In this document: positions 1 to 56,941 of the stretch, one piece after another
Layout: every line of letters starts with the position of its first letter
Numbering within the stretch: position 1 is the stretch's first letter
Assembly (NCBI GenBank): GCA_000002445.1
Contig: CM000208.1
Span: 2,144,001-2,208,000 of the forward strand
Length of the DNA: 64,000 nucleotides
DNA from: Trypanosoma brucei
Taxonomy: Eukaryota
Direction: 5' to 3'
The notes under the pieces: model-generated
The model's database searches: none
What the model was told of the DNA's origin: nothing
The model's input: only the letters and a program-made list of their open reading frames with translations
Translations under genes and position numbers: made by a program

Positions 1-1429
1 ATAGGTACATATACACATATATGTGACTGAGTGAATGAGGAAATGAGGTCATGTGAGTTGCGTGCGCGAACATATGCAAAGCTTTGTACTTTCTTTTGGA
101 CGTGTGATGTTTTCTCGTTGTCTTTCTTTTCGCGTTTGTCTCCGTGACCTCTCTTTTTGTTCCCTCTTGTCCTAATTGGCGAGAAGATCCATTATCCCTC
201 CCGCTAGCTGTGCGTAGTCTTCGCTCCTTCCATTAGTTGGTCAGTGAGCTACTACGCGGTGCCCTTTTTTTTTTATTCACTCCCGTTTTCCTTTTTTTTT
301 CTTTTTTTTGGTTTCATCTCTCAGTTTCATTTCTCAGCCAGCACGTGGGCTATTTGTACCTCTACCGCTACCGCCACTGCACACACGGGCGTATCCGTAT
401 ATACAAATTTATCTATGGACATGGGCTGGTTTGCCTTTCTGTACCACGTGCTTGAAGATGACATGAAGTTTGGCGGAGGGTCCTTTTTTTGTTTTTGTTT
501 GATTTATTCTATTGTTGCCCCTTCCGGGGCATATCCGTGCGTGTTGTTGAGCGTGCAGTGCGTTTATCTATCTCCCTTTATCTTTTTTTTTTTGTAATGG
601 GAGTGAAGTGCCACGATATTTGTGCCTCTACTTTATTTACCTTCTAACCAACGTTCTCACCTCAGTGGTGCCAGCTGCCGAGTGGCGAGCCGTGCGTGCC
701 CTTAGGCTTGTTTCTTTTTAACTGTTACCACTAGTCTTTCCCTTCAACTCTATTGTTATTATTATTATTCTTGCATATCTTTTGCGTTTTTGTTTTATTG
801 TTATTACAGCTGCCTGTATAAGTATTGTAGGGTCACACAACAAGAAAATAGAACTTTAAAAAAAAAGAAGAGAGGCGAGTGAAGGAACATATTTAGACGA
901 CATTTCAGGGGGTGAAAAAATAGAACAGATCGGAGATAAGAGAAGAAACAATTTTCACGAAAAGAAGGACATAAGTAGATAAGGCAAAGAGAGGAGTTCA
1001 ACTGAAGGCGAACAATTAAAAGAGAGGGAGAGACAAGGAAGAAAAGTTGTACGATCAAAGTAACCTCGTACAAATAAAAAGATTTCAAGTGCTAGAGAAA
1101 GGGGGAACAAGGGGTCAAAGCTGCAGATTATATATTTACATATATTTTATATAGTCACTCCTCACTGTACTTGTTGGTTATTTCTTCACACTTCACCAAA
1201 AGTACAATTCACCCATCGTTAAGGAAAAGAGTAAAGGAAGGGTCGCAAGTGATTCAGTGATTCAATTGGTTGAATACAGCGTCACACCATCACATCTGAG
1301 CGAGATAGACAAAAAGAAAGAGAATCATAGGAGGGGGAGAAAAGGGTAAAGTGCAAGAAGAAATACGGAAGTTCACGAGAAGAAGACAGGAGAGGGGGAA
1401 ACAACACTTGAAGGACAAGGGAACACACA

Positions 1430-3187
1430 ATGGTATTCGACAAAGAGTTGAGGAATGCTGATAACTGGCGCCTTTACCACCTTTTAGAGTTGGAGCCACC
1501 AGTGACAGCAAAGCAGGTGCAATGGCTCTTCCGCAAGGTGACGTTACGCCACCACTTCTACCAGGCATATAATATACTGCGTGATGAGGAGCGGAAGAGC
1601 CTTTATGATTCACTGGGTGAAAACTTTGTTGGCTACCTTAACAGTGGCAGCTGGGGACCACTTATTCAACTACTCGGCGCTAAGGCAACAGTAGCCGTCT
1701 GCTGCGGCGTATGGGTTCTGATGATTCTGCTCATGTTGTTCTTTTTCTTGGCTGTTGGCGCCCGTGCGGATCGTCTTATCACGTGGACGTGGATGCAGGT
1801 GGCTGCTCCCGGTTTGACAGTAACTCTCATTGTGCTTATCGCGACGGCAGTGGCCATGGCGGTTAGCTTTTTCCTACGGCAGCCGAAAGAGGAAGGCATG
1901 CGATTCGTGGACCGTATTCCTGCGATCGGTAATTTTGTCGCTGCCTTCTTCTACTGCATCTTTGCCTTCATTGGGGCGTCAACGGTGGACAGTTATGCAC
2001 CTCAGCGGCATAACAACTACGCGCCATACTTTGCTTTGCCTATCCTGGCTGATGTCATATATTATCTTTCTACCATGGTGTGGCGGTGGCCCCGCAACCG
2101 GCGTCTGGACCTGGAGGTTGGCATGCAGGAGTCTAAACCCATCTTGTGGTATGCTCCGTGCGTGTTCGCCGGTCTTCACATCATTTTGTCAATCGTCCAA
2201 TGGGTCCTCCTTGCGCAGCGTGTTGACCGTATAATTAAAATCAGTTGGTACGCTGCCGCAAGCCCTATTGCCGTCCGTGCTGTGGTACGTGTTGCTGAAT
2301 CATGTATGACCAGTTTGGCGCGGCGTGCCATTGGTATTAAGAGCGTATTGGGCGTTGTCTTTGACACCTTAGGCTCTTTGTTCTTCAATGGTTTATTGCT
2401 TTGCTCCGTGTTCTTTACAGCAGCCCGCTTTGTTCGCGGGAGGAGGGTGGTTCCCCTGATTCTCGTCTTTTTACCGGTATACTTGGTGCTATTTTATCTG
2501 CTTTTCTGCACTATATACACGCTTTTTTACCTCCTGAGGAGAATCACGGAGAATGCGCGTGAGGAGCGGATGAATAACCTCAAGTGGACTCCTGTGGAGC
2601 CTCAGGCCGGCGACAAGGTGGTTCCGACGTTGCTGCGTGACTTTGATGCCTCTGAACGCATCATTTGGGATGACATTGATGATGAGAGCACTATGCAATA
2701 TTCCACCGGGTATGATGAAGTTACATTTGAAACTGAGGGTTATGATGACTATGAAACTGGTGAGGAGGAGGAGGAAGAGGAGGAAGAGGAATTATTTGCA
2801 CGAGGCGCTATGGTTTCTGGTTCCTCCGCACCTCAAACTGCACCTGCGCATCAGCGCAACGTTCCTTTATCACGTCAAGAAAGCGAATTGGTAATTGATG
2901 ATGATCACTCTGTGGTTACAATTGAGAGCAGTGAAGAGCAGCCCGTGAGGCGTCATCATGCATACCACGATCCCTATGAGTCAAGAACTGGCACAGGATT
3001 AGTAGGCCCACAAAGTGAAACGGAGTACACTCAATATGATACTAATAACGACGCTTATGAAGTGGGTGATACAAATTTAGAATCTGAATGCGCCTCCTCC
3101 GATACTTCCAGTAGTTTTGAAGCCTCCGGGACGGCTCATTCTGAAAGGCATCAGGACCCACCTTCTGAAAATGTGCGACGAAATTAG
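1430..3187 (+). CDS. Multi-pass membrane protein with an N-terminal degenerate (HPD-less) J-domain-like region and an acidic poly-Glu C-terminal tail
   Basis: ATG-initiated 585-aa ORF. The N-terminus 'LYHLLELEPPVTAKQVQWLFRKVTLRHH...FYQAYNILRDEERKSLYDSLG' aligns to the J-domain consensus (YxxLgv...eIkkaYrkla.kyHPD...F..i..AyevLsD...R..YD), but HPD is replaced by RHH. About 8 hydrophobic TM-like segments follow. The C-terminus is acidic, with an EEEEEEEEEE run. Confidence 0.5.
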   Translation: MVFDKELRNADNWRLYHLLELEPPVTAKQVQWLFRKVTLRHHFYQAYNILRDEERKSLYDSLGENFVGYLNSGSWGPLIQLLGAKATVAVCCGVWVLMILLMLFFFLAVGARADRLITWTWMQVAAPGLTVTLIVLIATAVAMAVSFFLRQPKEEGMRFVDRIPAIGNFVAAFFYCIFAFIGASTVDSYAPQRHNNYAPYFALPILADVIYYLSTMVWRWPRNRRLDLEVGMQESKPILWYAPCVFAGLHIILSIVQWVLLAQRVDRIIKISWYAAASPIAVRAVVRVAESCMTSLARRAIGIKSVLGVVFDTLGSLFFNGLLLCSVFFTAARFVRGRRVVPLILVFLPVYLVLFYLLFCTIYTLFYLLRRITENAREERMNNLKWTPVEPQAGDKVVPTLLRDFDASERIIWDDIDDESTMQYSTGYDEVTFETEGYDDYETGEEEEEEEEEELFARGAMVSGSSAPQTAPAHQRNVPLSRQESELVIDDDHSVVTIESSEEQPVRRHHAYHDPYESRTGTGLVGPQSETEYTQYDTNNDAYEVGDTNLESECASSDTSSSFEASGTAHSERHQDPPSENVRRN

Positions 3188-7855: not shown

Positions 7856-9613
7856 ATGCCCGTCCATGCCCATGCCATGTGGAATTCTCTTTGCTTCTAC
7901 AAGGCGTATTTACCACCAGAGGACACCGTAAGGGCAACTGGCTACGTGGTATTGGCTCTGGAGGAACCGGAAGAGGAGGTTTCGCCGGTACCGCGTGAGA
8001 ACTCAAACGAGAGGGGCGTATCGCCATCGCTGTCGCATTTGGATTGGCCAGATGATGGCGCTTTATTTCCAGGGGACCGATTGACCGCCGGCGCAGCGAC
8101 GAACAGCTCCCAGCTAAGCGATTTACCACCATCCCATGAGAGGTCAGTGATGGATAGGGACACCAAACTTCAGTTTTTTCTTTTCCGAAAGGAAGACGTC
8201 TCGCCGCCGTATATGAAGGGGATGCTCGGTAAAATACGTCATTGTTTTTTGCTCTGTTTGCAAGGCGATCGTGGGAACCCATGCCACTGCCACAGGGCAC
8301 ACCTTTTGAACGAAGATGCCTGGCGTTTGAAGCTCAGTTCATTTGATTTTTCAACTCTGTGTGTGTCATCCAACTTTTCGTTACGGTACATAGACGTCAC
8401 TCACGTCCGTCCGACCGCGGGGTTTTTGTTCACCTGTGGTCTGCTTCACGAGCGAATCATTGTCGCGGCGCAACCTATTCTCTGCCGCTACAATGACAAG
8501 TGCCGCTACGGTTCGCAGTGCCTTTTCGTTCATGCTGACATTGGTGGTGACAATCTCACAAAAACGACAGCCGCCACCCCCCTGAGAAATTTGTTGCCCC
8601 CACAGGAGGGTCTCGACACTTTTTTGGCTCAGTTGGAGGAGGTGGAGCTCCAAACTGTAGGGGATGTGCAACGGCTGAGCACAAAGGCATTTGACGCTTT
8701 TGTCGGCGGATGTGAACCACAATGGACCCCATTATGGCTAAACATATCTATTTTCCGTGAAATTCAACCCAAGGCATCGCTGGAAAGTGTGCTAATTTCT
8801 TTTCCTGGTGTTACTGCGCCGGTAGTTCTGCCGCCAAATCTGACAAACGTACTTTCGTTGTTGGACATGTCTCAGAAAGATTTCTACAAACTGAAACTCA
8901 CCATCAATGTACAGGCAGCGTGCGAAAAGATACGGGCCCGCTTTTGGTCTAGCAGAGATTACAGGACGTTAGACCTCAAAAGGGAAGGTGCGAAATCCTT
9001 TTTCACGAACATCACTTTAGAAATTTTACAGTTTCGATCAACAATGGCGGACTGTAGTTGGCGCAAGAAGGATCCAATGCGGCAGGTGGTGACCTCGCTG
9101 ATGACGTACGTGGATCACAAGAAGTGTCACTGCAATGTCACTTGCGGGAGCCGAAGGCACTGGTCGATGCATAAGCCAGCACTATCTTCCAACGGAAATG
9201 GGATGAGTAATGCCACATTTCCCGACCATTCCTGGTGTACATGTCCGCGTTCTACTGTGATGGCTGTCAACTATGAGCTCAGCACACCCAGCGGCTCTCG
9301 ATGCTCGGAGCAAAATGCACTGGGTAAATTGGCATCCATGGGCCTCCCCACATGTGCTGTACGGGAAGTATTTGTGCATGGGGAACATCAGGGATCAAAA
9401 AAGGACCCTAATCCGTTGTTTCCATGCGGTGTCTGTGAGAATATGTTGCGGAAGGTTGCCCACGATGTATTGGAAATTCATGGTGGAGACGTTATGTTGT
9501 ACATGTACGACTCCACTCACAACCCCAAGAGACTTGTTTATCTTCCCATAACCGAAATTTCTTATAGAGACGACATGGGGTTTAGGGAGTTTGTGGCGGA
9601 TCTTCATGAGTAG
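7856..9613 (+). CDS. CCCH zinc-finger protein with a C-terminal cytidine deaminase-like (CDA-fold) domain
   Basis: Read from the translation: a CCCH-type finger 'CRYNDKCRYGSQCLFVH' (C-x5-C-x5-C-x3-H) at about nt 8480-8535. The C-terminal 'AVNYELSTPSGSRCSEQNALGKLASMG...(37 aa)...PCGVCENMLRKV' matches the cytidine-deaminase signatures NxEN / CAE(R)xAI / PCGxCRQ (compare human CDA '[25 protein letters not shown]...SPCGACRQVMREF'). The catalytic Glu and all three Zn ligands (C, C, C) are retained. A strong polypyrimidine tract sits immediately upstream of the ATG (7790-7855). Confidence 0.6.
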   Translation: MPVHAHAMWNSLCFYKAYLPPEDTVRATGYVVLALEEPEEEVSPVPRENSNERGVSPSLSHLDWPDDGALFPGDRLTAGAATNSSQLSDLPPSHERSVMDRDTKLQFFLFRKEDVSPPYMKGMLGKIRHCFLLCLQGDRGNPCHCHRAHLLNEDAWRLKLSSFDFSTLCVSSNFSLRYIDVTHVRPTAGFLFTCGLLHERIIVAAQPILCRYNDKCRYGSQCLFVHADIGGDNLTKTTAATPLRNLLPPQEGLDTFLAQLEEVELQTVGDVQRLSTKAFDAFVGGCEPQWTPLWLNISIFREIQPKASLESVLISFPGVTAPVVLPPNLTNVLSLLDMSQKDFYKLKLTINVQAACEKIRARFWSSRDYRTLDLKREGAKSFFTNITLEILQFRSTMADCSWRKKDPMRQVVTSLMTYVDHKKCHCNVTCGSRRHWSMHKPALSSNGNGMSNATFPDHSWCTCPRSTVMAVNYELSTPSGSRCSEQNALGKLASMGLPTCAVREVFVHGEHQGSKKDPNPLFPCGVCENMLRKVAHDVLEIHGGDVMLYMYDSTHNPKRLVYLPITEISYRDDMGFREFVADLHE

Positions 9614-13373: not shown

Positions 13374-14240
13374 ATGTCATCGCTTGCCGAGAGACTCGTG
13401 CAACAGTTGCTGAAATTTCATCAACGTGGAGCTGAGCTCGAACAGGAGCAGAAGACGCTTGCGGAGGAGGAGAAATGCAACCAAACTCTCCAGGAACGCC
13501 TCAAACAAATGCAAGAACAAGTGCAGAAGGTGCGGGAAATTCGTGCGGTACTTAACGAACACAACCGTGCGGCGGAGGAAAAGTATGAGCAGGCAATAAA
13601 AGATGATGAGGCAAAGCGGGCGCTGATGTCAGAGGAATTGCAGGCAACTTTATCAGAGGTGAATTCATATGCAGAGGAAATTGCGCACATGGAAGCAAAA
13701 GCAGCGCAAGAGAATAAGCTACTGAAGGAACAACTTGAGATATACACCAGATTTCACTTGGATGGGCAGGACAAATACAATGAAATCATGCGTTCCAGGG
13801 AGCAGGAATACGCCAAGTTGGAGGCGAAGAAGGAAGCGGACGCCGCCCGGAAACCGCAGCTTCTGGCCGAATTATCGGAAGAGAATGAGCGTTTCCTTCA
13901 AACTCGCAAGGAGGAAAAGGAACTTGAAGTTCTAATGGATGGTTGGGTGGCACGTGTAACGGAGCTTCAAGAAAGGTTTTTAAAAGCAAGAAGGTTCTTT
14001 GAAAGTTTTAAGGAAGAAAAGGAAAGACATGTGAAGCGGATTCGATCACTTGAAAGTGAAAAAACCGTGTTGTTGGCGCGGGTGGAAAGATGTAGAGCAG
14101 AGCGTGACAAGGAGCAAGCAAAGGCGAAGGCATTCGAGGAAAAGGTCATCACACAAAAGAAACAGATAGAGAAACTTAGTGCCGTTGCACACATGCTCGA
14201 GTCCGGAAGCTTAGCAGAGAGTACGGATGCGGCAACATAG
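13374..14240 (+). CDS. Coiled-coil protein (hypothetical)
   Basis: ATG-initiated 288-aa ORF. It is strongly heptad-like, rich in E/K/Q/L/R throughout (e.g. LEQEQKTLAEEEKCNQTLQERLKQMQEQVQKVREIRAVL), which is typical of cytoskeletal or flagellar coiled-coil proteins. Confidence 0.5.
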   Translation: MSSLAERLVQQLLKFHQRGAELEQEQKTLAEEEKCNQTLQERLKQMQEQVQKVREIRAVLNEHNRAAEEKYEQAIKDDEAKRALMSEELQATLSEVNSYAEEIAHMEAKAAQENKLLKEQLEIYTRFHLDGQDKYNEIMRSREQEYAKLEAKKEADAARKPQLLAELSEENERFLQTRKEEKELEVLMDGWVARVTELQERFLKARRFFESFKEEKERHVKRIRSLESEKTVLLARVERCRAERDKEQAKAKAFEEKVITQKKQIEKLSAVAHMLESGSLAESTDAAT

Positions 14241-20985: not shown

Positions 20986-22284
20986 ATGAACGCGCCTCAC
21001 AGAACTCCCGGCAGCAATTCCGCTGGGAATACCGGCCCCGGGTCACACCGGTCCCGCTGCATTAGTTTAGATCCACGGGTTCATGAACACATTCCACCGC
21101 ATTTCCTACCGAATTTGGCCAAATACAAATATAGCGGTAGTGACTCTGGCATAATTTCGAACTATGTCATGCAGCCATACTGGAACTTTATCGTAAGTCT
21201 TGTTCCCATGACTGTCGCGCCCAACGCCATTACCGTCACGGGGTTTGTGATGTGCCTCTCTTCTGCGCTTTTGGTTATGTTCTTTTACTACTTCGGAAAT
21301 GCCGAGTATCCTTGTTGGGTGTGGCTGTATGCCGTCATATGCCTTTTTGCGTACCAGACACTTGATGCAATAGATGGAAAACAGGCCCGTCGTACTAATA
21401 CGGGGTCACCACTTGGTGAATTGTTTGACCATGGGTGTGACGTCATATTAACACCTTTTGTACAAATGATGATATGCTGTGCTCTAAATACGCCTCCCTG
21501 TGTTACCTTTGTGTACATCACACTCTCATCATGCGCAGTCTTTGGTGCCATCTGGGAGCAGTTTGTCACCGGTACACTTGACTTCGGTTACGTCAATGGT
21601 CCCACTGACGGCATATTGCTCGCGTGCGGTATTTTTCTCATCACAGCCATCATGTCACCAGCCGTGTGGGATACTCAAGTGGCTGGACCTTACGAGGTGC
21701 CGTTGCCGTCATGGTTAGGCAGTTGCGGTGGCTCGTTCGTGATTGGATCAGTGCGGAGTATGTTATTTACCTTTTATGTGGTATCTGGGACTCTGACACT
21801 GCTAACAAACATATTGCATGTTTTAAAAAGGCCAAACATTCAGAAACCTGGTATGGCCGTGACAACTGCCCTACCGGTTGTCTGCTTGCTGGTACTTCAC
21901 GTCTGGATGTATCTGGTTTACCGCCCCATCCATGAGAAGTATCCATATGCACTGGAGTTGAGTTTTCACGTTTTGATATCTTACACTGCCACACGCATGA
22001 CTGTTTCCAGGTTGTGCGCAATGCCGTTTAACCTTTTCAGTGGGTTGTTTATCATTACACTACTCTTCACTGTTGCTCCGCTCTTCATCCACACCTACTT
22101 GCCTCTTGCTGAGGAAAAATATGTATTGCCATCACTTGGCTCCGCCACAGTGGCGCTTGCAGTACTGGGGTTCTGGCAGTACTTCCATATGATTCTTTCC
22201 GTTATCACACAGATGGCGTACTTTCTTCGCATTTCGGTTTTTTCTATTACATCGCGTCATGACTCCAACACGAAGTGGGAGTAG
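20986..22284 (+). CDS. Choline/ethanolamine phosphotransferase (CDP-alcohol phosphatidyltransferase family)
   Basis: The motif 'DAIDGKQARRTNTGSPLGELFDHGCD' matches D-G-x2-A-R-x8-G-x3-D-x3-D exactly. The 432-aa ORF has about 8-10 TM helices, the size and topology of eukaryotic CPT/EPT/CEPT enzymes. A long T-run polypyrimidine tract precedes the ATG. Confidence 0.85.
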   Translation: MNAPHRTPGSNSAGNTGPGSHRSRCISLDPRVHEHIPPHFLPNLAKYKYSGSDSGIISNYVMQPYWNFIVSLVPMTVAPNAITVTGFVMCLSSALLVMFFYYFGNAEYPCWVWLYAVICLFAYQTLDAIDGKQARRTNTGSPLGELFDHGCDVILTPFVQMMICCALNTPPCVTFVYITLSSCAVFGAIWEQFVTGTLDFGYVNGPTDGILLACGIFLITAIMSPAVWDTQVAGPYEVPLPSWLGSCGGSFVIGSVRSMLFTFYVVSGTLTLLTNILHVLKRPNIQKPGMAVTTALPVVCLLVLHVWMYLVYRPIHEKYPYALELSFHVLISYTATRMTVSRLCAMPFNLFSGLFIITLLFTVAPLFIHTYLPLAEEKYVLPSLGSATVALAVLGFWQYFHMILSVITQMAYFLRISVFSITSRHDSNTKWE

Positions 22285-25865: not shown

Positions 25866-28800
25866 ATGAACAGCAACAGTCTTCTGGGGGAACTGGCGAA
25901 GGAGTGCGCTCCTTTGCTGCTCGCTCCTCGCGCTGACGATCCCGACGCTGTTGTGCGCCGTCTGCGGATTCTTCCAGCTGATGGTATTTATCGCTGTTCC
26001 AGCCGTGATAGCATAATAACTCCCTACGTGTTTTCGGGCGACGCAGAACACTCGGCACCACCTAATCACTCACTGACGCCGGAACAATCGGGTAGCGTGG
26101 TCACTTCCGACATTCTAGGAATTTCGACTGAAGTGTGTCCACTTCAAACAGCCCTCTCACTCGCTTCGGTTGAATGTGTAGCCGCAAATCAGAAGCATTT
26201 ATTCGAACTGAATGTCTTTCTTCAGCTGCTGCGCCAGGCACCGGCGAGTTACACTAGTTCTTTATTTTGGAGTGTGCTTATTCGGCGGCTTGGGGAGCTA
26301 GGCTTCTACGAAATAATGAAAGGAAATATAAACACCCTGTGGGCGAGAATTGGCCGACAGTTGCTTCGCAGTGGAGAGATGTTCAACGCTTTACGCCTTC
26401 TTCAAACTTCCTGTGATGTTGTTCTACACTACAGTGAGCACGCTGTGCAGTATCCTCCGGACGCAACGTTGCTTGGTGAGTTCGCTGTGCTCGCTCGTCA
26501 GATGTGGGCGGAGAGTTCGTCGCCCGTGGTGAGGCGCTGCGCCCTTGTAGTTTCTGCTTTTCTGACAAAGTTTGCCGACTTGGTACCACTCGACCTGTTG
26601 AGCGACGCCAGCGAAACAAAACGTGATGCTCCCCACTTACTCGCGGTCGTTGCGAAGGCACCTACACTTTTCAAGGAGGAGGAGGAAACCGCTGCCGCGG
26701 GGGAAAATCTTCGTGTAGTATTAACAGTCGCGTTCACAACTACAGCTTACTCAATTCCCACCACGATGTACTTTCGTGGTGAGGGCCCTCAGTCCGCCTC
26801 GTTGTCACTTGTTCAACACCGCTTTGCTTCGGCACTCCACCAGCTGCTGGTATTAGCTTCATATGGGTTCTGGGATCATTTTTCTGCCGAATCACTGCTC
26901 TCTTTGACTGAGGCGTCGGCTGTTTACTCGCGTTTGTGGAACTCTTTTCCCCCCAAGATGTTCACGCTCTGGGGTCGTATATGCCAAAATAATCTTGTGA
27001 CCTCCTGCAAAATGTACACATCGTCCCTCTTCAATTATTGTATTTCCGCCGCTGCTTATCATTACAGTCTCGGGGAGTTGGAGGGCATTACTCGTCGTTA
27101 TGCCGTAGGGGACGTCTCGCACGGTGGGGAGCCGTCAAGTACGGAGCCACTTCAGGCAGCAGACGAAGGGCAAAAACGTGGAAGGCAGCAAGAACAGCAT
27201 GAGGATGTAAGTGAAAGAATCCTTGGGAGTGGTGCTGACGCCTGTGAGAAGCTTGACATTACTCCACACTTGAGGGAAACATTTCGATTAATGGTTACCG
27301 GATGGGGCTCGTTCCAGCCCGGTGACAGGAATTTTCTACGCAGTGGTCTCGTTGTGTTGCACGTGTTGTTGCTTAACTACCCGTATCAACTGGAGGAGTT
27401 GGGGAAAGCAATTGGATTTGATGTAGGCCAACTGCTTCATGGCATTGTAATGGGTCTTTTAGCAAGCGACGTTGATAGTGCACAAATAATGGAGACGGTT
27501 TACTCCATCATTTTCCGTTTTTACGAGATGTTCGACATTTTCGATGTCGTTTCCAACCTCTTGCCGCCACAGGTGATGGCCGATGTGGGCCTAAAGTGTG
27601 AAACAACAGAAAAGGCGCTTATGCAAGCACAGCTTTATGGGGCGCTGCTTGAAACGCATGGAGAGGACATATCGCCTCTTCCTTTACTGGAAGCAGCAAC
27701 ACACATAAGCCGTGGCGCCATTTTGCGCTTCTCCTCCGCCACTTCATTTTTTGTTAAGTGGTTCACTGTTACTGAAAGGTCACTTTTGTTGCAACCGCGA
27801 GACGCCCTGGTCGACCTGTTCTCCCTTAAGGGCGCCGGTGACAAGTTGGTTCAATGCCTCTGTGAAGGTGCTCTTGCCCTTGTCCGTGAACTTCAGTCGG
27901 GTAACGTAATTATCGACGGGTTTCCTGTGGCACCGGTGTTGGAGAGCGTTATCAGTTGCATTTCTTCCGCTGTCTTGTATGGAGGTCAACAAAACGCATT
28001 GGTTGCATGTGCCATTGCCGTTCACGGTGAGGGCGACGTCCCCGCCTCTCTCATGTTGTTCTGTTTAGTATTTGCCGCCAACGCAAATATTACCTTACTA
28101 GAGTCCTCTGCCAGGCTACTGGCGTACGTTGTAGAGCATTCGGATGAGGGGCTCTTTACCACCCTGAGACTTCATACCTCGATTGAGATGAAAAAACGAC
28201 TGCTTGCAGGGTTGCATCAACAACTGGGGTCGGCCGCCTCTGCCGATTCTACAGGCGCAAGGATGGTGCGTCTTGCGACTCTCCACCACCTGCTACGCTT
28301 TGACCCAGCCGCATTCTATTACCTCATGGCTGCTGAGGACCACGGAAAGGAATCCGCGGAGCTACGAATTACGCCCTTCTTGCGTGATGTTGTTAAGTCT
28401 TCGGACACTACGGCACTTGAGAAATCGGAAGCCCTCGCTTGTCTCAAAGCACTTGACGATGTGGGTGTTTCTACAACCGAGGTTGCAACCCTGTTATCAA
28501 ATATGCGGGTCGATTCTCCGATCACCGGGGGTGTTTTAACTGCTGCGGCAGTTTATTATGCCTGCGGCGTATACTTTCATAAGTACAAGTTGGACGGTGG
28601 GGAAAGCAGTGTGGCCCCAACAGGGAAGGGAGTAACTCAGCGGTTGAGGTTGTCGGATTCTTTTACGGTAAACATGATGCAAGGAAAGGTATTGATAGGC
28701 CCCTCAGATGAGGCGTGTAAGATGCTGAAGTTCAGCTGTGAGGCGCTAAAGCAGTGTATTAGTTTTTACGAGCAGACCGCAAAGCATCTTCGCTATGGTG

Positions 28801-30860
28801 ATGCCAATAATGCCACAGTACTACCCTCCATTGACTCCTACCCGGCTGCACATTCTCCTCTGGTTCTTTCGGTTGCAGGAACCGCTGGCCGCTCCGCAGG
28901 TTGCACCGATCGTCGGTGTCGGTCTCTGGTGGATCCAAGACAAATGTGTAATGGACAGGCAACGTTTAGCTCGTGCCTTCTTGCTGCCGAGGGAATTTCC
29001 ATGTGGGAAGGGGTGGCCAATGTCGATTTGGACCGCCTGGCATCGGCGCTGGTGGCAATTACTCGCCTCACTACATCGATTGAAGCTGCGTTGTGGATTT
29101 TGTACGGAGAAAAGGAAGTAGACTCAGTAACCGCACAGCTGCTTGAGGCTGCACTTTGTGCTGTGCAGATGTTAGGATCACCAGTTCCGCAGCTTCGAGA
29201 TCAGGTGTCGGCGTGCCTAGATGGTGCACTGACGTTGGCGCAAACTGCAGCAGTCATACTCACTCGAATGCCTAGTGACGGGAACTCGCTTTTGCGCACT
29301 GGAGAGTTCATCGGTCTTTTTTCCGTTTTCGTAAAGACTTTATCTCTTTACCGTGACGACGACGATGTTATTTCGAGGGGTCTCAAGATCGTTGGAGTGT
29401 TTAAACCTGTAGAGGTAGCTGACGAGGAGGTGGTGATACACATTTTTGACACAATCGCATCCGTTGTGGAAAGGCATGCTTCGTCAAGTCCGACCGATTT
29501 CCTTGTGCCTATAGTTGCTCAGGTGACTGTGATTTTTACCAGCATTGGTGAGTTCTGTCCAACCAAGTGCGCGCTCGGCATTGTGAATAACCTATGGTCT
29601 TGCGCGATGAACGTCTCGCAAATGATTGTTATCGCTGATCCGTGTTCGCCGCTGTCCAACAAGTTCGACGTTATTGTAGAAGCTGTGAGGGCCATTTTGT
29701 TGCAGTGCGACGGAATACTGGGGTATCTTTCATATGATCGAATAATGCCTATGGCCACTGCTCTCGGGCAGCTTAGTAACGCAAGCTGCTATGATGCGTT
29801 GGATCATCTTTATAAACCACAGGCCTGGCATGGGGCATGGTTATCATTGCTTCGGTTATTTCACGCCGTTTTGATCGGTTGTGGCGGGGGCAGTGAAAAT
29901 ACGTTGGGGTGGCTCTCGATCATCTCGAGCTGGGCGACGACCAGCCCACGGTTTCGGGAGGCCGTTTCTGGCTTCACTTATTGCCGCGGTGGGGTTTCAA
30001 GAAGCTCCGGGCCTCATTCATGGGAGTGGCAGGAAATGCACATTGCAACATTGATCATCAGTTTGTTGTCTAGCCTGGGTACCTCCACCGCACCACTGAC
30101 ACCACATGTTCAGCGCTGCTTTTGTCGTATTCGCCATTTTACCTGTCAGACAACGGGTACACCGTGCGCCGCATCTTTAAACGAACTCTTTTTAGCCACT
30201 GTGCGCCACCAGCTCTCATATCTCATTTTCCACTCCCCGCCATCGGGTTATATGGAGGGTGAGCCGCCCATTGTGACCATTTCCCGGTATCGCTACCCTT
30301 CAAATGGTGAGGCATCGACATCTGATGGTTTACTTCTGCAGAAGGCTGCCAAAGTGAACGAAGGGGACCAGAAGGAGGAGCAACTTTCTTTCTACACCCT
30401 GCGGTGTTTCATATTTCGAGAGTTAAGTATTCTTCGAAAGAGCTGCCGTGACGACTCGAGTGCCACAGGTGCCCTTACCTCTCCCGACAATACTCCTGTA
30501 ATGCGATCCAGTTCCCTGAACACAAGCACGGACGGTTTCTCTGATATTGATGTTCGTGATGGGGGTTTGCAGGTGGTTGCACCGCACCTTCTCAACGTTC
30601 AGCTCGCTCTCATTCTTTTTGTGCGTAACGGCCATTTTCAGGTTTTCCAACGTTGTTTGGATCTGTGGGAGCAGCAGGAGCTTGTCGAAGGGTTGGATGA
30701 GCTTCATCGCTTTCTCAATCTGCTGTCGCACTACGCACGTCGCCTTGAGAGTACAAAGTTGATATCGGTGGTGGAAACGGTACAGGAAGAGTTGCAGGGA
30801 CTTGCCGAAAGACTCCGCAGTGGAGCGACTTCATGGCGGACGACAGGAGCCACGTTGTGA
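25866..30860 (+). CDS. Very large (1664 aa) Leu/Ala-rich, predominantly alpha-helical protein of unknown function
   Basis: A single uninterrupted ATG-initiated ORF of 4995 nt on the transcribed strand. Its codon usage is like that of the neighbouring genes. No motif recognised. Only short, low-complexity antisense ORFs overlap it. Confidence 0.6.
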   Translation: MNSNSLLGELAKECAPLLLAPRADDPDAVVRRLRILPADGIYRCSSRDSIITPYVFSGDAEHSAPPNHSLTPEQSGSVVTSDILGISTEVCPLQTALSLASVECVAANQKHLFELNVFLQLLRQAPASYTSSLFWSVLIRRLGELGFYEIMKGNINTLWARIGRQLLRSGEMFNALRLLQTSCDVVLHYSEHAVQYPPDATLLGEFAVLARQMWAESSSPVVRRCALVVSAFLTKFADLVPLDLLSDASETKRDAPHLLAVVAKAPTLFKEEEETAAAGENLRVVLTVAFTTTAYSIPTTMYFRGEGPQSASLSLVQHRFASALHQLLVLASYGFWDHFSAESLLSLTEASAVYSRLWNSFPPKMFTLWGRICQNNLVTSCKMYTSSLFNYCISAAAYHYSLGELEGITRRYAVGDVSHGGEPSSTEPLQAADEGQKRGRQQEQHEDVSERILGSGADACEKLDITPHLRETFRLMVTGWGSFQPGDRNFLRSGLVVLHVLLLNYPYQLEELGKAIGFDVGQLLHGIVMGLLASDVDSAQIMETVYSIIFRFYEMFDIFDVVSNLLPPQVMADVGLKCETTEKALMQAQLYGALLETHGEDISPLPLLEAATHISRGAILRFSSATSFFVKWFTVTERSLLLQPRDALVDLFSLKGAGDKLVQCLCEGALALVRELQSGNVIIDGFPVAPVLESVISCISSAVLYGGQQNALVACAIAVHGEGDVPASLMLFCLVFAANANITLLESSARLLAYVVEHSDEGLFTTLRLHTSIEMKKRLLAGLHQQLGSAASADSTGARMVRLATLHHLLRFDPAAFYYLMAAEDHGKESAELRITPFLRDVVKSSDTTALEKSEALACLKALDDVGVSTTEVATLLSNMRVDSPITGGVLTAAAVYYACGVYFHKYKLDGGESSVAPTGKGVTQRLRLSDSFTVNMMQGKVLIGPSDEACKMLKFSCEALKQCISFYEQTAKHLRYGDANNATVLPSIDSYPAAHSPLVLSVAGTAGRSAGCTDRRCRSLVDPRQMCNGQATFSSCLLAAEGISMWEGVANVDLDRLASALVAITRLTTSIEAALWILYGEKEVDSVTAQLLEAALCAVQMLGSPVPQLRDQVSACLDGALTLAQTAAVILTRMPSDGNSLLRTGEFIGLFSVFVKTLSLYRDDDDVISRGLKIVGVFKPVEVADEEVVIHIFDTIASVVERHASSSPTDFLVPIVAQVTVIFTSIGEFCPTKCALGIVNNLWSCAMNVSQMIVIADPCSPLSNKFDVIVEAVRAILLQCDGILGYLSYDRIMPMATALGQLSNASCYDALDHLYKPQAWHGAWLSLLRLFHAVLIGCGGGSENTLGWLSIISSWATTSPRFREAVSGFTYCRGGVSRSSGPHSWEWQEMHIATLIISLLSSLGTSTAPLTPHVQRCFCRIRHFTCQTTGTPCAASLNELFLATVRHQLSYLIFHSPPSGYMEGEPPIVTISRYRYPSNGEASTSDGLLLQKAAKVNEGDQKEEQLSFYTLRCFIFRELSILRKSCRDDSSATGALTSPDNTPVMRSSSLNTSTDGFSDIDVRDGGLQVVAPHLLNVQLALILFVRNGHFQVFQRCLDLWEQQELVEGLDELHRFLNLLSHYARRLESTKLISVVETVQEELQGLAERLRSGATSWRTTGATL

Positions 30861-31266: not shown

Positions 31267-32286
31267 ATGACATCCAGTTTTCTCGCACATCCCAAAGTCC
31301 TTTTGATGGGACTGCGCAAGTCTGGAAAGACCAGCATACAAAAGGTTGTATTTGAGGGTATGCAGCCGCACCACTGTGTGGACCTTACAACCACCGTACA
31401 ACCGGAGAAGAGTACCGTTTGCTCCTATGACTTTGTGAACTTTGAGGTGTGGGACTTTCCGGGGCAAACTGACCCATTCGACTTAAACAACACGGTTCAC
31501 TACGACGTGGGTGTCCTCTTGGAGAACTGCGGTGCTATCGTTTTTGTGATGGATTGTGGTGAGTTGATCGACGATTCCCATGCTCGTCTCGTGGAAACCG
31601 TATGTGCTGCTTATGACCGTGATCCAGAGCTCTCAGTGGAGGTGTTTATACATAAAGTGGATAAATTAAGCGAAGATCATCAGGCTGATCTGCTCACGAG
31701 TCTTCAGCGACGTGTAGAGGCTGAGGCAAGACAGCGCCTAAACGCCACCGCGCAGTTGCGCTTGAACTTCAACCTAACGTCAATCTATGACCACTCTGTT
31801 TTCCAAGCCTTCTCGTCGGTGGTGCAGAAGCTCATGAAACTGCAGATCCCTTATATCACAGAGCTTCTGCAGATTCTAAATAGTAATAGCAACTTGGATC
31901 TCTCTTATTTGTTCTTGAGTAGGTCCAAAATTTTCTTGTCTGTGGACGAGCGAAATCGTGTCAAGACTCGCACATATGAAATTTGTAGTGATGCTATCGA
32001 GGTAATGATGGGAATGAATCGTATTTATAGCAAGGGGAAGGAACAGGGGGAAGGTGATGAAGAAGAGGTAAGCAGTGGTGCCCGGGGGACGGAAGCTGAG
32101 GTTTATGCCGGAGCAAACATTGTAATCAAACTTAGTAGCGATGACTGCATTTACGTTAAGGAGTTGCCAAACTCTCTTACACTCGTGTCAATGGTAAAAA
32201 ATGAGTCCTTTCGTAACCGAATTCTCATTGATCATAACATCTCAGCATTCTATAACGCTGCTTATAGTATTTTCCGACGCAACTAG
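31267..32286 (+). CDS. Ras-related GTP-binding protein, RagC/D (Gtr2) subfamily
   Basis: '[20 protein letters not shown]' (P-loop) and 'FEVWDFPGQ' (switch II), then '[15 protein letters not shown]' and '[20 protein letters not shown]', align closely with human RagC ('[20 protein letters not shown]...FQIWDFPGQ...[15 protein letters not shown]...[20 protein letters not shown]'). Length is 339 aa, including the roadblock-type C-terminal domain. Confidence 0.85.
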   Translation: [339 protein letters not shown]

Positions 32287-35525: not shown

Positions 35526-36788
35526 AAGGTGGAATGTGTTGATGCCGATCATTTCTTCAGTATTTGTTTCCCTGTATTTACCACCCTCTCAATTCACTTG
35601 TTGTTTCATGTTTTCTTTATGTCACCTCAACTGTTGTGCGCGTGGCTTCGTCGCCATTTTGGTTGTCAAGTGCAGATGGTAGAGGGAGGAAAAAGGCGCA
35701 CACTTCAGTTGAGCGCTCGTTTCACTATGTATTCTATCACCTTCTTCTGTTTTGTTTTTCATTTTTCGCTACTTCAATGTGTACATGTCGTCGATGATTA
35801 ATTCTTCCCGATGTGTGCTCCTATGTATGTCTGTGAGCAGGAGGGAAAGGGCGGGTGTGATGCTTGGAGGTAACAAAAAAAAAAAAGAATCGGTAGCTTG
35901 CCTTCTTCTTTCCCTCCTTCGAAGAACAACGAGCGCCTGCTGCAAAAACAATTTTTTCTCTGTTTTGCATTTAGAAGGTTGTTTCTTCAGTTATGTCGCA
36001 GAAATGTAGGTCCGACAATCTTCTTTTCTTTTTCTTTTATCTCGTTTTGTAGATCTCTACCACATGTGCGTATGCCAAAGGTGTAATTAAAGCAGGTAGG
36101 AGGAACGAGAGGAAGGAGAAAAAAAAAAGAACATAGATTTATATTGTTCCCCTACATCGGAGCAGACTACGTCTGTAATATGCGGAACCAACCTTCTCTG
36201 CACTTTACTGTAAATGTCTGCGAGATCACGTGATGTACACAAATTGGCTGCGTTCCTCTCACCACGTTGGATGCTGGAAAGGACACACAAACGAGGACAG
36301 AGAAACAATAACAACAACAAAAAAAAGAAAAGAAGCAACAACTTATGATGACAATATTATTTCTTACTTTCTGATCCGTGATTTGATTGACACAAGCACT
36401 GTCTGTGCGAACGTATCGAGAACCTGATTATATTGTCTTTAAAAATCCCCTCCTTTACATTATTTCCCTCCTTTACCTTATTTTCCTATCTCTTATACAT
36501 GACGAGACCGAACGGTAACTCTCTGGAAACTCATCCCCTCTTTTCTGTAGATGTGTTTCCTCATCGGTTCCCGGAGAAACCCTTTACGAGTTTCCTTCAG
36601 CGCAACTCAAACTGTCTGTTGGATTGTTGTTTAGTTTTAGGACCAACCTTGTGGGTTTATGTGGAAGAATGAGATTGAGAAAAAAGGTATGACGATTGTT
36701 TTATCGATATGTTTTGTGTCTATTTCTCCCCTCTTTTACTGCACTTGCCTTCATTCGTGTTTTCTTCACGTTGGTTTTTTTCCCACCG

Positions 36789-47101: not shown

Positions 47102-47398
47102 AAAATGTGTGTTCCGTTCGTTACAGTATGTTTAGTATTTTGATCATTGAGTAGTGTACATTGGAAAGCTGCCACGACTCACCAGTGGTTTGCATAAAAC
47201 TCTAAGGGTGCATGTGTTTTTTATGTTTTCTTCTTTCTTTTTCCGTTTCTTTGTCCTTACGTGGTGTTACCTTTTTAATTCCTTATTTGTTCTTCCCATT
47301 ATCCGATGCCATTGTGGGTCAGAGGACCCCAGTCATTAGCAGTTAGGAAGCACAAGTGGGGCAACGTCAGGTGGAGAAAGTGAGTGATTTGCTGCAGG

Positions 47399-53280: not shown

Positions 53281-53525
53281 GACATGTTCAGTACATTGGT
53301 TATCTATTAGGAGTGGGATAGGCATTCTGAACTGGAACTCTTTACCTGAATCAACTGGGAGAGTTGCTGCAGCTTCATCACACTGCTGTTCTTTGCTTAA
53401 CCCGTATCGTTTTTATTTTTATTCCGAAATAGGAGTGCGCTTTGGAACTACAAAGACAGCGTAATTCTCACTTTACTTCCCATATCTGTCTTGTTGTGAT
53501 ATATATTGTGTAGGTGTGGGTAATA

Positions 53526-56601: not shown

Positions 56602-56941
56602 AGTTAGGTAATATTCAGTTGTTTTTTACAACGCCCCTTGCGTGCATAGGTGAAGGTGTAAGAGCGATTGGGGAAATTGTAGAGGCGTATGTCCATTATC
56701 GGAAGAAACGCAAAGGGGGTTGATTTGTTTTTGGTGGGTGACTAACTTGACCGCGGCGTGGTCGTTAATAAAATACTTATAGCATGGCTATCATCCGTGA
56801 CAACGTGACGACTGACATACCTTTTTCACCCTTCTACTTGCTTGTTGTTTATAGCAGTTGAATACGAACACACCGTTCTACAGAAAGGTCTGGAAAAGTA
56901 AGGAGAGTGGTAAGAATTTGCTTCTTCTATGGTTGTTGAAT

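What the first reader, a model, noticed from the sequence alone, without database searches (positions are those of the whole stretch)
7856..9613. CCCH zinc finger fused to an apparently catalytically intact cytidine deaminase domain: candidate RNA/tRNA C-to-U deaminase
The translation shows a CCCH-type RNA-binding finger (CRYNDKCRYGSQCLFVH). About 270 residues downstream lies a domain matching the tetrameric cytidine-deaminase fold block for block: NxE (AVNYE), C-S-E-Q-N-A-L (CAE(R)xAI zinc/catalytic motif with the Glu present) and PCGVCENM (PCGxCRQ zinc motif). Free-standing kinetoplastid cytidine deaminases for pyrimidine salvage are small (~180 aa) single-domain enzymes. A 585-aa protein joining an RNA-binding finger to a CDA domain is the architecture expected of a polynucleotide (RNA) deaminase. 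In trypanosomatids the enzyme that edits C to U in the mitochondrial tRNA-Trp anticodon has not been assigned, and this architecture would fit that activity. This is inference from motifs only.
Basis: partly seen in the sequence, partly recalled or inferred. Interest (0 to 1): 0.75.

Follow-up and report, generated by a model that had tools for sequence, protein, structure and literature searches.

The report
Known trypanosome CCCH-finger cytidine deaminase-like protein
This ORF is the already published Trypanosoma brucei gene Tb927.10.8850 ("TbCDA-like"), a cytosolic zinc-finger/cytidine-deaminase fusion that affects pyrimidine nucleotide pools; it is not the mitochondrial tRNA-Trp editing enzyme, which was assigned to another gene in 2021.

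Summary
ORF 7856..9613 (+) encodes 585 aa with a CCCH finger (C210–H226) and an apparently intact cytidine-deaminase domain (N472-Y-E474, C483-S-E485, P523-C-G-V-C527).

It is not new. The translation is identical to XP_823109.1 of T. brucei brucei TREU927, and its residue numbering matches published Tb927.10.8850, "TbCDA-like". Pfam has a dedicated family for it (PF14421, E = 7e-53).

The CCCH plus deaminase architecture was noted in 2010. It was dissected in 2011 as two CCCH fingers, a C2C2 insert and a CDA-derived core, with an mRNA-editing or DNA-mutator role proposed. The protein was studied experimentally in 2025.

My alignment of 30 orthologues shows all four zinc sites invariant. An AlphaFold model matches only homotetrameric cytidine and blasticidin-S deaminases, not APOBEC, ADAT or TadA.

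The tRNA-Trp proposal is out of date. Editing was assigned in 2021 to TbmCDAT (Tb927.3.4530), and TbCDA-like is cytosolic, in mRNP and stress granules. Overexpression lowers CTP and dCTP and raises UTP and dTTP. RNAi raises CMP.

The substrate is still unknown, so cytosolic RNA deamination remains a minority possibility.

The parts
7856..9613 (+). Complete ORF of 585 aa plus stop. It is Tb927.10.8850 / TbCDA-like (XP_823109.1).
   Evidence: ORF list. Exact-sequence look-up gives T. brucei brucei TREU927 XP_823109.1/EAN78281.1 on a 4.05-Mb contig. Landmark residue numbers are identical to those published for TbCDA-like.
7856..7999 (+). N-terminal folded segment (residues 1-48) containing the conserved W..FYKGYLP motif. 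It is not presequence-like.
   Evidence: pLDDT is 72-94 for residues 1-40, with helices 5-11 and 21-28 and strand 30-36. The motif is conserved in the alignment. The first 40 residues hold 2 R+K against 6 D+E.
8000..8155 (+). Disordered, poorly conserved linker (residues 49-100).
   Evidence: pLDDT is below 50 for residues 49-100. Mean identity to orthologues is 14% and the length is highly variable.
8255..8302 (+). First, non-conventional CCCH-like zinc site (C134, C143, C145, H149), embedded in a small beta-rich module.
   Evidence: All four ligands are invariant in 30 orthologues, with variable spacing. It was proposed as a second CCCH by Iyer 2011 and Moro-Bulnes 2025. No Pfam hit.
8483..8533 (+). 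Second CCCH zinc finger, CRYNDKCRYGSQCLFVH (C210, C216, C222, H226).
   Evidence: The ligands are invariant. Spacing is 5/5/3 in 19 orthologues and a conventional 7-8/5/3 in 10. Pfam zf-CCCH_2 scores 19.3 bits, below threshold. The family profile hits TTP-type fingers 9y10 and 1m9o at E = 0.005-0.01.
8573..8965 (+). All-helical middle region (residues 240-370) with the conserved G.xTVGDxQxLS..AF motif. It shows a weak resemblance to SAM-like / helix-hairpin-helix bundles.
8966..9610 (+). LmjF36.5940-type CDD/CDA-like deaminase domain (residues 371-585). Its elements are a1 382-397, b1 411-418, the insert, b2 466-471, a2 484-494, b3 502-510, a3 525-542, b4 547-551, b5 559-564 and C-terminal helices.
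   Evidence: Pfam PF14421, E = 7e-53. In the Foldseek search all of the top 50 hits are homotetrameric CDAs or blasticidin-S deaminase, E from 6.5e-5, target-normalised TM 0.6-0.7. The core 464-531 is 78% identical on average across orthologues, against about 33% for the rest.
9125..9244 (+). C2C2 zinc-chelating insert between strand 1 and strand 2 of the deaminase fold (C424, C426 ... C461, C463), with a variable disordered loop.
   Evidence: The four Cys are invariant, and the loop between the pairs ranges from 30 to 94 residues. pLDDT is below 50 for residues 430-451. Described by Iyer 2011.
9269..9277 (+). N472-Y473-E474, the counterpart of the ribose-binding Asn42-x-Glu44 of homotetrameric CDAs.
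   Evidence: Invariant. It aligns with N42/E44 of B. subtilis CDA 1ux0. In tetrameric CDA, Asn42 and Glu44 hydrogen-bond the ribose 3'/5' oxygens (PMC9897663).
9302..9310 (+). C483-S-E485: first zinc ligand and the catalytic proton-shuttle glutamate, at the N-terminus of helix 2.
   Evidence: Invariant. It aligns with C53/E55 of B. subtilis CDA. Same residues as published.
9422..9436 (+). P523-C524-G-V-C527: second and third zinc ligands, at the N-terminus of helix 3.
   Evidence: Invariant. It aligns with the PCGAC motif of B. subtilis and E. faecalis CDAs. Same residues as published.

Best explanation
The ORF is the single-copy T. brucei chromosome-10 gene Tb927.10.8850, published as TbCDA-like. 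It is the kinetoplastid representative of the LmjF36.5940-like branch of the CDD/CDA deaminase clade.

Shown: it has four conserved zinc sites, namely two N-terminal CCCH-type fingers, a C2C2 insert and the catalytic Cys3 site with its glutamate. Between the fingers and the catalytic domain lies a helical region that weakly resembles SAM/HhH bundles.

From the literature: it is cytosolic, sits in mRNP and stress granules, and is not essential. Its dosage shifts cytosine nucleotides towards uracil and thymine nucleotides.

Inferred mechanism: it is an active zinc-dependent hydrolytic cytosine deaminase. Its active site still holds the ribose through the Asn-x-Glu pair, as a nucleoside deaminase does. 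It therefore most likely acts on cytidine-type monomers (CMP, cytidine or deoxycytidine), or at most on a residue with a free 3'-OH. The fingers would tether it to mRNA granules where RNA turnover releases such monomers. It is not the mitochondrial tRNA-Trp C34-to-U editing enzyme.
For: Identity:
- Exact sequence match to XP_823109.1.
- Residue numbering identical to the published protein.
- Rfam finds the chromosome-10 snoRNAs TB10Cs5H2 and TB10Cs5H3 in the same window.

Family:
- PF14421, 180 bits.
- Distant clade members also pass PF00383, e.g. P0089 at 42.6 bits against a cutoff of 25.

Fold:
- Only tetrameric CDA and blasticidin-S deaminase appear among the top 50 solved-structure matches.

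Catalytic integrity:
- C483, E485, C524, C527, N472 and E474 are invariant in 30 orthologues.
- The core is 78% identical on average.

Ribose contacts:
- N472/E474 align with Asn42/Glu44 of B. subtilis CDA. Those residues hydrogen-bond the ribose oxygens in tetrameric CDAs (PMC9897663).

Function (PMC12064671):
- Overexpression lowers CTP and dCTP and raises UTP and dTTP.
- RNAi raises CMP 3.8-fold and lowers dTTP.
- The protein is cytosolic and granular, with Pearson about 0.8 against Dhh1, DRBD3 and Scd6.

One distant clade member (P0095) is fused to a HAD-type hydrolase, which fits small-molecule nucleotide chemistry in the clade.

The tRNA-Trp enzyme is assigned to Tb927.3.4530.
Against: - No enzymatic activity has been shown. 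The recombinant protein is insoluble and the substrate is unidentified.
- The RNAi line was leaky, and nucleoside or base supplementation did not rescue growth. Pool changes could therefore be indirect.
- Canonical CDAs do not accept CMP.
- Canonical CDAs complete the site with residues from neighbouring subunits (Ala46, Tyr48, Phe126). Here the corresponding stretch is a family-specific invariant S476-T-P-S-G-S-R482 of low model confidence, so the 5' side of the pocket may differ.
- Two or three conserved nucleic-acid-binding modules are an expensive addition for a monomer-metabolising enzyme.
Confidence: 0.6

Rival explanations
1. It is a cytosolic polynucleotide deaminase. The CCCH fingers and the SAM/HhH-like module would position the CDA-type domain on single-stranded RNA (mRNA in granules, or a cytosolic tRNA) to convert specific C residues to U. 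The changes in nucleotide pools would then be secondary.
For: - The architecture was already read this way by Iyer et al. 2011.
- Both fingers are invariant from trypanosomes to distant euglenozoans.
- The protein co-localises with Dhh1, DRBD3 and Scd6 and accumulates at the nuclear periphery like RNA-binding proteins.
- One of the fold matches, yeast CDD1 (1r5t), is titled by its depositors 'an orphan C to U editase'.
- The trans-subunit 5'-OH contacts of canonical CDAs are replaced by a family-specific invariant loop.
Against: - No cytosolic or nuclear mRNA C-to-U editing has been reported in T. brucei.
- The known cytosolic tRNA C-to-U event, tRNA-Thr C32, is attributed to ADAT2/3.
- No APOBEC, ADAT or TadA appears among the 50 best fold matches.
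- The Asn-x-Glu ribose clamp, which needs a free 3'-OH in nucleoside CDAs, is invariant.
- Direct effects on CTP/UTP and dCTP/dTTP pools are observed.
Confidence: 0.2
2. One reading: it is the enzyme that edits C34 to U in the anticodon of imported mitochondrial tRNA-Trp.
For: - It has an intact deaminase motif plus RNA-binding fingers.
- The protein appeared in one mitochondrial proteome and was therefore put on the 17-candidate list of Paris et al..
- The TbmCDAT assignment rests on partial RNAi without in vitro activity.
Against: - Editing fell from about 60% to 22% on knock-down of a different gene, Tb927.3.4530, whose product is mitochondrial.
- TbCDA-like is cytosolic by N- and C-terminal endogenous tags and TrypTag, and does not co-stain with MitoTracker.
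- The gene is not essential, whereas UGA decoding in the mitochondrion should be.
- The N-terminus is acidic and folded, not presequence-like.
- The held text does not show whether 8850 was among the nine RNAi lines actually assayed.
Confidence: 0.02
3. It is mainly an RNA-binding or regulatory granule protein. Its deaminase domain would serve as a nucleotide sensor or binding module without physiologically relevant catalysis.
For: - No activity has been demonstrated.
- It localises to granules.
- It is non-essential, and nucleoside supplementation does not rescue.
Against: - The catalytic Glu and all three zinc ligands are invariant, and the active-site block is the most conserved part of the protein at 78% against 33%. 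Inactive deaminase paralogues typically lose these residues; examples are listed in Iyer 2011.
- The direction of the pool shifts on overexpression (C down, U and T up) is what deamination predicts.
Confidence: 0.1
4. It is a DNA cytosine deaminase (mutator) acting on single-stranded DNA.
For: - Iyer 2011 listed DNA mutagenesis as an option.
- Overexpression causes gamma-H2A accumulation, sub-G1 cells and aberrant nuclei and kinetoplasts.
Against: - The protein is not nuclear.
- DNA damage is explained by dNTP imbalance.
- There is no structural similarity to APOBEC/AID among the best matches.
Confidence: 0.03

Closest known systems
TbCDA-like, Tb927.10.8850 (Moro-Bulnes et al., Sci Rep 2025, PMC12064671); prototype LmjF36.5940 (Iyer et al., NAR 2011, PMC3239186); Pfam PF14421
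   Same: It is the same protein. The sequence is identical to the TREU927 entry. It has the same length, chromosome and residue numbers, and the same domain composition of two CCCH, a C2C2 insert and a CDA-derived core.
   Different: Nothing differs. The only additions here are a confident AlphaFold model, a fold search, a 30-orthologue conservation map, and the weak SAM/HhH-like reading of residues 240-370.
Homotetrameric cytidine deaminases (B. subtilis Cdd 1jtk, human and mouse CDA 1mq0/2fr5, yeast CDD1 1r5t) and blasticidin-S deaminase
   Same: - Same fold (Foldseek E from 6.5e-5, target-normalised TM 0.6-0.7).
- Same Cys3 zinc site with a C-x-E and PCxxC arrangement.
- Same Asn-x-Glu ribose clamp.
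   Different: - Sequence similarity is marginal: TIGR01354 scores 17.8 bits against a cutoff of 113.65, and no canonical CDA is found at E <= 0.001 in 1.84 billion representatives.
- There is a 40-residue C2C2 insert between strands 1 and 2.
- About 370 extra N-terminal residues carry the fingers.
- Gln486 replaces the Arg56 position.
- The loop that supplies trans-subunit contacts in tetrameric CDAs is replaced by the invariant STPSGSR.
- The oligomeric state is unknown.
TbmCDAT, Tb927.3.4530 (Paris et al., RNA Biol 2021, PMC8677022)
   Same: It is kinetoplastid-specific, carries (C/H)xE and PCxxC motifs, and is insoluble when expressed in E. coli.
   Different: It is a different gene on chromosome 3. 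It is mitochondrial, and its depletion lowers tRNA-Trp C34 editing. TbCDA-like is cytosolic.
TbCDA, Tb927.9.3000 (canonical small cytidine deaminase of T. brucei)
   Same: It belongs to the CDA superfamily and deaminates cytidine and deoxycytidine for pyrimidine salvage.
   Different: It is a small single-domain enzyme, mitochondrial, and essential for dUrd supply. It was tested for tRNA-Trp editing and found negative. It has no fingers or insert.
Polynucleotide deaminases (APOBEC/AID, ADAT2/3 and TadA, plant DYW)
   Same: They share the general deaminase fold and zinc chemistry. In those systems accessory nucleic-acid-binding parts supply specificity, according to established knowledge of the families.
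   Different: None appears among the 50 best structural matches. The clade is CDD/CDA-derived rather than TadA-derived.

Membership tests
LmjF36.5940-like CDD/CDA deaminase clade (Pfam PF14421) | Match to the family HMM above the curated cutoff | tested here: met
   180 bits, E = 7.2e-53, against a cutoff of 27.1. All 60 homologues carry PF14421.
LmjF36.5940-like CDD/CDA deaminase clade (Pfam PF14421) | C[H]AE-type motif in helix 2 and PCxxC in helix 3 (as in CDD/CDA, Iyer 2011) | tested here: met
   C483-S-E485 lies at the start of helix 484-494 and P523-C-G-V-C527 at the start of helix 525-542. Both are invariant in 30 orthologues.
LmjF36.5940-like CDD/CDA deaminase clade (Pfam PF14421) | Kinetoplastid version: two N-terminal CCCH domains | tested here: met
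   C134/C143/C145/H149 and C210/C216/C222/H226 are all invariant. Only the second gets a Pfam CCCH hit, and that hit is below threshold.
LmjF36.5940-like CDD/CDA deaminase clade (Pfam PF14421) | Kinetoplastid version: C2C2 zinc-chelating insert between strand 1 and strand 2 | tested here: met
   The invariant C424, C426, C461 and C463 lie between strands 411-418 and 466-471 of the model.
Homotetrameric cytidine deaminase (TIGR01354 cyt_deam_tetra; PF00383) | Sequence match above curated cutoffs | tested here: not met
   TIGR01354 scores 17.8 bits against a cutoff of 113.65. This protein has no PF00383 hit even at E <= 10. PDB CDAs are reached only at E = 0.27-1.2. Distant clade members do pass PF00383, so superfamily membership holds transitively, but equivalog status does not.
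Homotetrameric cytidine deaminase (TIGR01354 cyt_deam_tetra; PF00383) | CDA fold with a Cys3 zinc site and catalytic Glu | tested here: met
   All of the top 50 Foldseek hits are tetrameric CDA or blasticidin-S deaminase, with target-normalised TM 0.6-0.7.
Homotetrameric cytidine deaminase (TIGR01354 cyt_deam_tetra; PF00383) | Ribose-binding Asn-x-Glu, plus trans-subunit contacts (Ala46, Tyr48, Phe126 in CDA_F14 / B. subtilis numbering) | tested here: inconclusive
   The Asn-x-Glu is present and invariant (N472, E474). The trans-subunit positions are replaced by the invariant S476/P478 loop, which has pLDDT below 50.
Homotetrameric cytidine deaminase (TIGR01354 cyt_deam_tetra; PF00383) | Homotetramer; deaminates free cytidine and deoxycytidine | not testable with these tools
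   The recombinant protein is insoluble and no substrate has been identified. No multimer prediction was available.
CCCH (C3H1) RNA-binding zinc finger | C-x7/8-C-x5-C-x3-H spacing and a match to CCCH HMMs | tested here: inconclusive
   The T. brucei finger has the non-conventional 5/5/3 spacing, while 10 of 30 orthologues have 7-8/5/3. zf-CCCH_2 scores 19.3 bits against a cutoff of 25.8. The family profile hits TTP-like fingers at E = 0.005-0.01. Kramer 2010 lists a CCCH protein with a cytidine deaminase domain.
CCCH (C3H1) RNA-binding zinc finger | Binds single-stranded RNA | not testable with these tools
   Only indirect evidence exists: co-localisation with the mRNP granule markers Dhh1, DRBD3 and Scd6.
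Polynucleotide-editing deaminases (APOBEC/AID, ADAT/TadA) | Structural similarity closest to these families | tested here: not met
   None appears among the 50 best solved-structure matches.
Mitochondrial tRNA-Trp C34 deaminase (TbmCDAT) | Mitochondrial localisation, and loss of tRNA-Trp editing on depletion | not testable with these tools
   According to the literature, TbCDA-like is cytosolic and the editing phenotype maps to Tb927.3.4530. Whether an 8850 RNAi line was itself assayed is not stated in the held text.

The most novel reading that the evidence does not exclude
TbCDA-like is a true cytosolic RNA cytidine deaminase, built independently of APOBEC and ADAT from a nucleoside-CDA core plus CCCH fingers. 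It would edit or mark C residues, possibly 3'-terminal ones, in mRNAs held in P-bodies or stress granules of kinetoplastids. The nucleotide-pool phenotypes would be downstream effects. No nuclear-encoded mRNA C-to-U editing is known in these organisms.
Probability: 0.15. Interest if true: 0.7.

Novelty: already known. Interest (0 to 1): 0.12.

Why it matters
As a discovery it does not matter.

What remains open is biochemical, namely the true substrate of a deaminase conserved across kinetoplastids and related euglenozoans and reported absent from mammals. If the substrate proved to be RNA, this would be an independent invention of an RNA-editing deaminase from a nucleoside-CDA scaffold. If it is CMP or cytidine, the protein fills the missing cytosolic (d)CMP/cytidine deaminase step of trypanosomatid pyrimidine metabolism, and it is a possible drug target.

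Tried and rejected
1. Paralogue check. The other 585-aa ORF at 1430..3187 is unrelated (BLASTP E = 0.1), so the equal length is a coincidence.

2. Direct sequence link to solved CDAs. The full-length query and the family profile found only CCCH fingers. The isolated core reached CDAs only at E = 0.27-1.2. The superfamily link therefore rests on Pfam PF14421, on distant members that pass PF00383, and on the fold search.

3. NCBIfam gave only a far sub-threshold TIGR01354 hit.

5. I tried to find out whether Paris et al. assayed the 8850 RNAi line. The text names only ADAT2, Tb927.9.3000 and Tb927.3.4530 among the nine lines tested, the figure labels are not held, and no supplementary files are held.

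6. No further literature on this gene was found beyond the 2010, 2011, 2021 and 2025 papers.

7. The zinc-site geometry could not be measured because model coordinates are not exposed to scripts.
Full report
**Observation.** The window carries an ATG-to-stop ORF at 7856..9613 on the + strand, encoding 585 aa.
- CRYNDKCRYGSQCLFVH at residues 210-226, spacing C-x5-C-x5-C-x3-H
- AVNYE, with N472 and E474
- CSEQNAL, with C483 and E485
- PCGVCENM, with P523, C524 and C527

**Identity.** The translation is, residue for residue, XP_823109.1/EAN78281.1 of Trypanosoma brucei brucei TREU927, on a 4.05-Mb contig. Rfam finds the chromosome-10 snoRNAs TB10Cs5H2 and TB10Cs5H3 at 36159-36579 in the same window. 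All long ORFs lie on one strand, as expected for a trypanosomatid polycistron. The published description of TbCDA-like (Tb927.10.8850) fits exactly. It gives 585 aa, a single copy on chromosome 10, and the residues Cys134, Cys143, Cys145, His149, Cys483, Glu485, Pro523, Cys524 and Cys527 (PMC12064671). I verified those positions.

**Family placement.** Pfam has a dedicated model, PF14421 "LmjF365940 subfamily CDD/CDA-like deaminase". The protein matches it at 180 bits, E = 7e-53. All 60 homologues recovered from 5.8 billion proteins carry this family. They span Trypanosoma, Leishmania and other trypanosomatids, Bodo, Neobodo and Diplonema.

An exhaustive HMMER scan of 1.84 billion cluster representatives with the domain alone finds only 59 relatives at E <= 0.001, and none is a canonical cytidine deaminase. 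By sequence the link to ordinary CDAs is marginal. TIGR01354 scores 17.8 bits against a cutoff of 113.65, and PDB CDAs are reached only at E = 0.27-1.2. Distant clade members do pass Pfam's general deaminase family PF00383, for example P0089 at 42.6 bits against 25.

**Fold.** An AlphaFold2 model built on a 30-orthologue alignment has mean pLDDT 80. It matches only homotetrameric cytidine deaminases and blasticidin-S deaminase among its 50 best solved-structure hits. These include mouse 2fr5, human 1mq0, B. subtilis 1jtk and yeast CDD1 1r5t, with E from 6.5e-5 and target-normalised TM of 0.6-0.7. No APOBEC, ADAT or TadA structure appears.

**Anatomy.** The alignment of 30 orthologues, which fall to 29% identity, shows four invariant metal sites:
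- C134/C143/C145/H149
- C210/C216/C222/H226
- C424/C426/C461/C463
- the catalytic C483/E485/C524/C527, together with N472-Y-E474

In the model, the last three secondary-structure blocks follow the CDA order:
- helix 382-397
- strand 411-418
- the insert at 424-463, disordered at 430-451
- strand 466-471
- helix 484-494, starting at CSE
- strand 502-510
- helix 525-542, starting at PCGVC
- strands 547-551 and 559-564

[quoted passage not shown]. The active-site core (464-531) averages 78% identity to the orthologues, against about 33% for the rest of the protein.

Its Pfam scores are below threshold. The family profile touches TTP-type fingers at E = 0.005-0.01.

**What was already known.** Four papers cover this protein.
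- Kramer et al. 2010 listed "a cytidine deaminase domain" among the extra domains of kinetoplastid CCCH proteins (PMC2873481).
- Iyer et al. 2011 defined the LmjF36.5940-like clade. [quoted passage not shown]
- Paris et al. 2021 put Tb927.10.8850 on their 17-candidate list for the mitochondrial tRNA-Trp deaminase. They found the phenotype with a different gene, Tb927.3.4530 (TbmCDAT), whose partial knock-down lowered editing from about 60% to 22% and impaired mitochondrial translation (PMC8677022).
- Moro-Bulnes et al. 2025 studied TbCDA-like directly (PMC12064671).

The 2025 findings were:
- The protein is cytosolic and granular by N- and C-terminal endogenous tagging, and is not mitochondrial, nuclear or glycosomal.
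- It co-localises with Dhh1, DRBD3 and Scd6 (Pearson about 0.8) and redistributes on starvation.
- It is not essential.
- Roughly 15-fold overexpression is toxic, lowers CTP and dCTP, raises UTP and dTTP, and induces gamma-H2A.
- RNAi raises CMP 3.8-fold and lowers dTTP.
- The recombinant protein is insoluble and no substrate was identified.

**Mechanism.** Shown: the protein has an intact, strongly constrained CDA-type active site in a cytosolic granule protein, and its dosage moves cytosine nucleotides towards uracil and thymine nucleotides.

Inferred: the invariant N472/E474 align with Asn42/Glu44 of B. subtilis CDA. In homotetrameric CDAs those residues hydrogen-bond the ribose 3' and 5' oxygens (PMC9897663). 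An enzyme that keeps this clamp is most simply one that handles a monomer, or at most a residue with a free 3'-OH, rather than an internal nucleotide of a polymer. One distant clade member is fused to a HAD-type hydrolase, which fits small-molecule nucleotide chemistry.

I therefore favour a deaminase of cytidine-type monomers (CMP, cytidine or dC), held by its fingers at sites of mRNA storage and decay. This is essentially the 2025 authors' own speculation.

The caveats are real:
- Canonical CDAs reject CMP.
- The loop that supplies trans-subunit 5'-OH contacts in canonical CDAs is replaced here by an invariant, low-confidence S476-T-P-S-G-S-R482.
- The RNAi line was leaky and supplementation did not rescue growth.
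- Three conserved accessory nucleic-acid-type modules call for an explanation.

I give the monomer model 0.6 and cytosolic RNA deamination 0.2. A non-catalytic role gets 0.1, DNA deamination 0.03 and mitochondrial tRNA-Trp editing 0.02.

**Verdict.** The feature is already known, so interest is low. The only residual value is the unsolved substrate question, for which decisive experiments are listed in the next-steps field.

Noticed in passing
window 36159-36225 (+) and 36510-36579 (+): Two H/ACA-type trypanosomatid snoRNAs, TB10Cs5H2 (74.3 bits) and TB10Cs5H3 (74.7 bits), lie in an intergenic stretch. They are known Rfam families and independently place the window on T. brucei chromosome 10.
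   Followed up: no
window 53514-54956 (+) and 61854-63911 (+): Two tRNA-modification genes lie downstream in the same polycistron. One is a Gcd10p/TRM6-like subunit of the tRNA m1A58 methyltransferase (E = 1e-50). The other is a TruD/Pus7-type pseudouridine synthase (E = 4.5e-65). Gene order in trypanosomatid polycistrons is not normally functional, so this is probably a coincidence.
   Followed up: no
window 1430-3187 (+): A second ORF of exactly 585 aa lies upstream. It is unrelated to the deaminase (BLASTP E = 0.1) and has no Pfam hit.
   Followed up: yes
[not shown]
   Followed up: partly
protein P0095 (418 aa, distant PF14421 member; not in the window): It has an N-terminal LmjF36.5940-type deaminase core (34.4 bits) fused to a C-terminal HAD-type hydrolase (E = 8.5e-17). 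This fusion hints at nucleotide or monomer chemistry in the wider clade. P0070 (1084 aa) carries the domain at the C-terminus of a much longer protein.
   Followed up: partly
window 25866-30860, 47384-52324, 56858-61564 (+): Three very long ORFs (1664, 1646 and 1568 aa) have no Pfam match or only a marginal one. The third has a sub-threshold RAB3GAP2_N hit at 24 bits. Other neighbours are RagA/Gtr1 (31267-32286), a CDP-alcohol phosphatidyltransferase (20986-22284) and a taxilin-like coiled coil (13374-14240).
   Followed up: no
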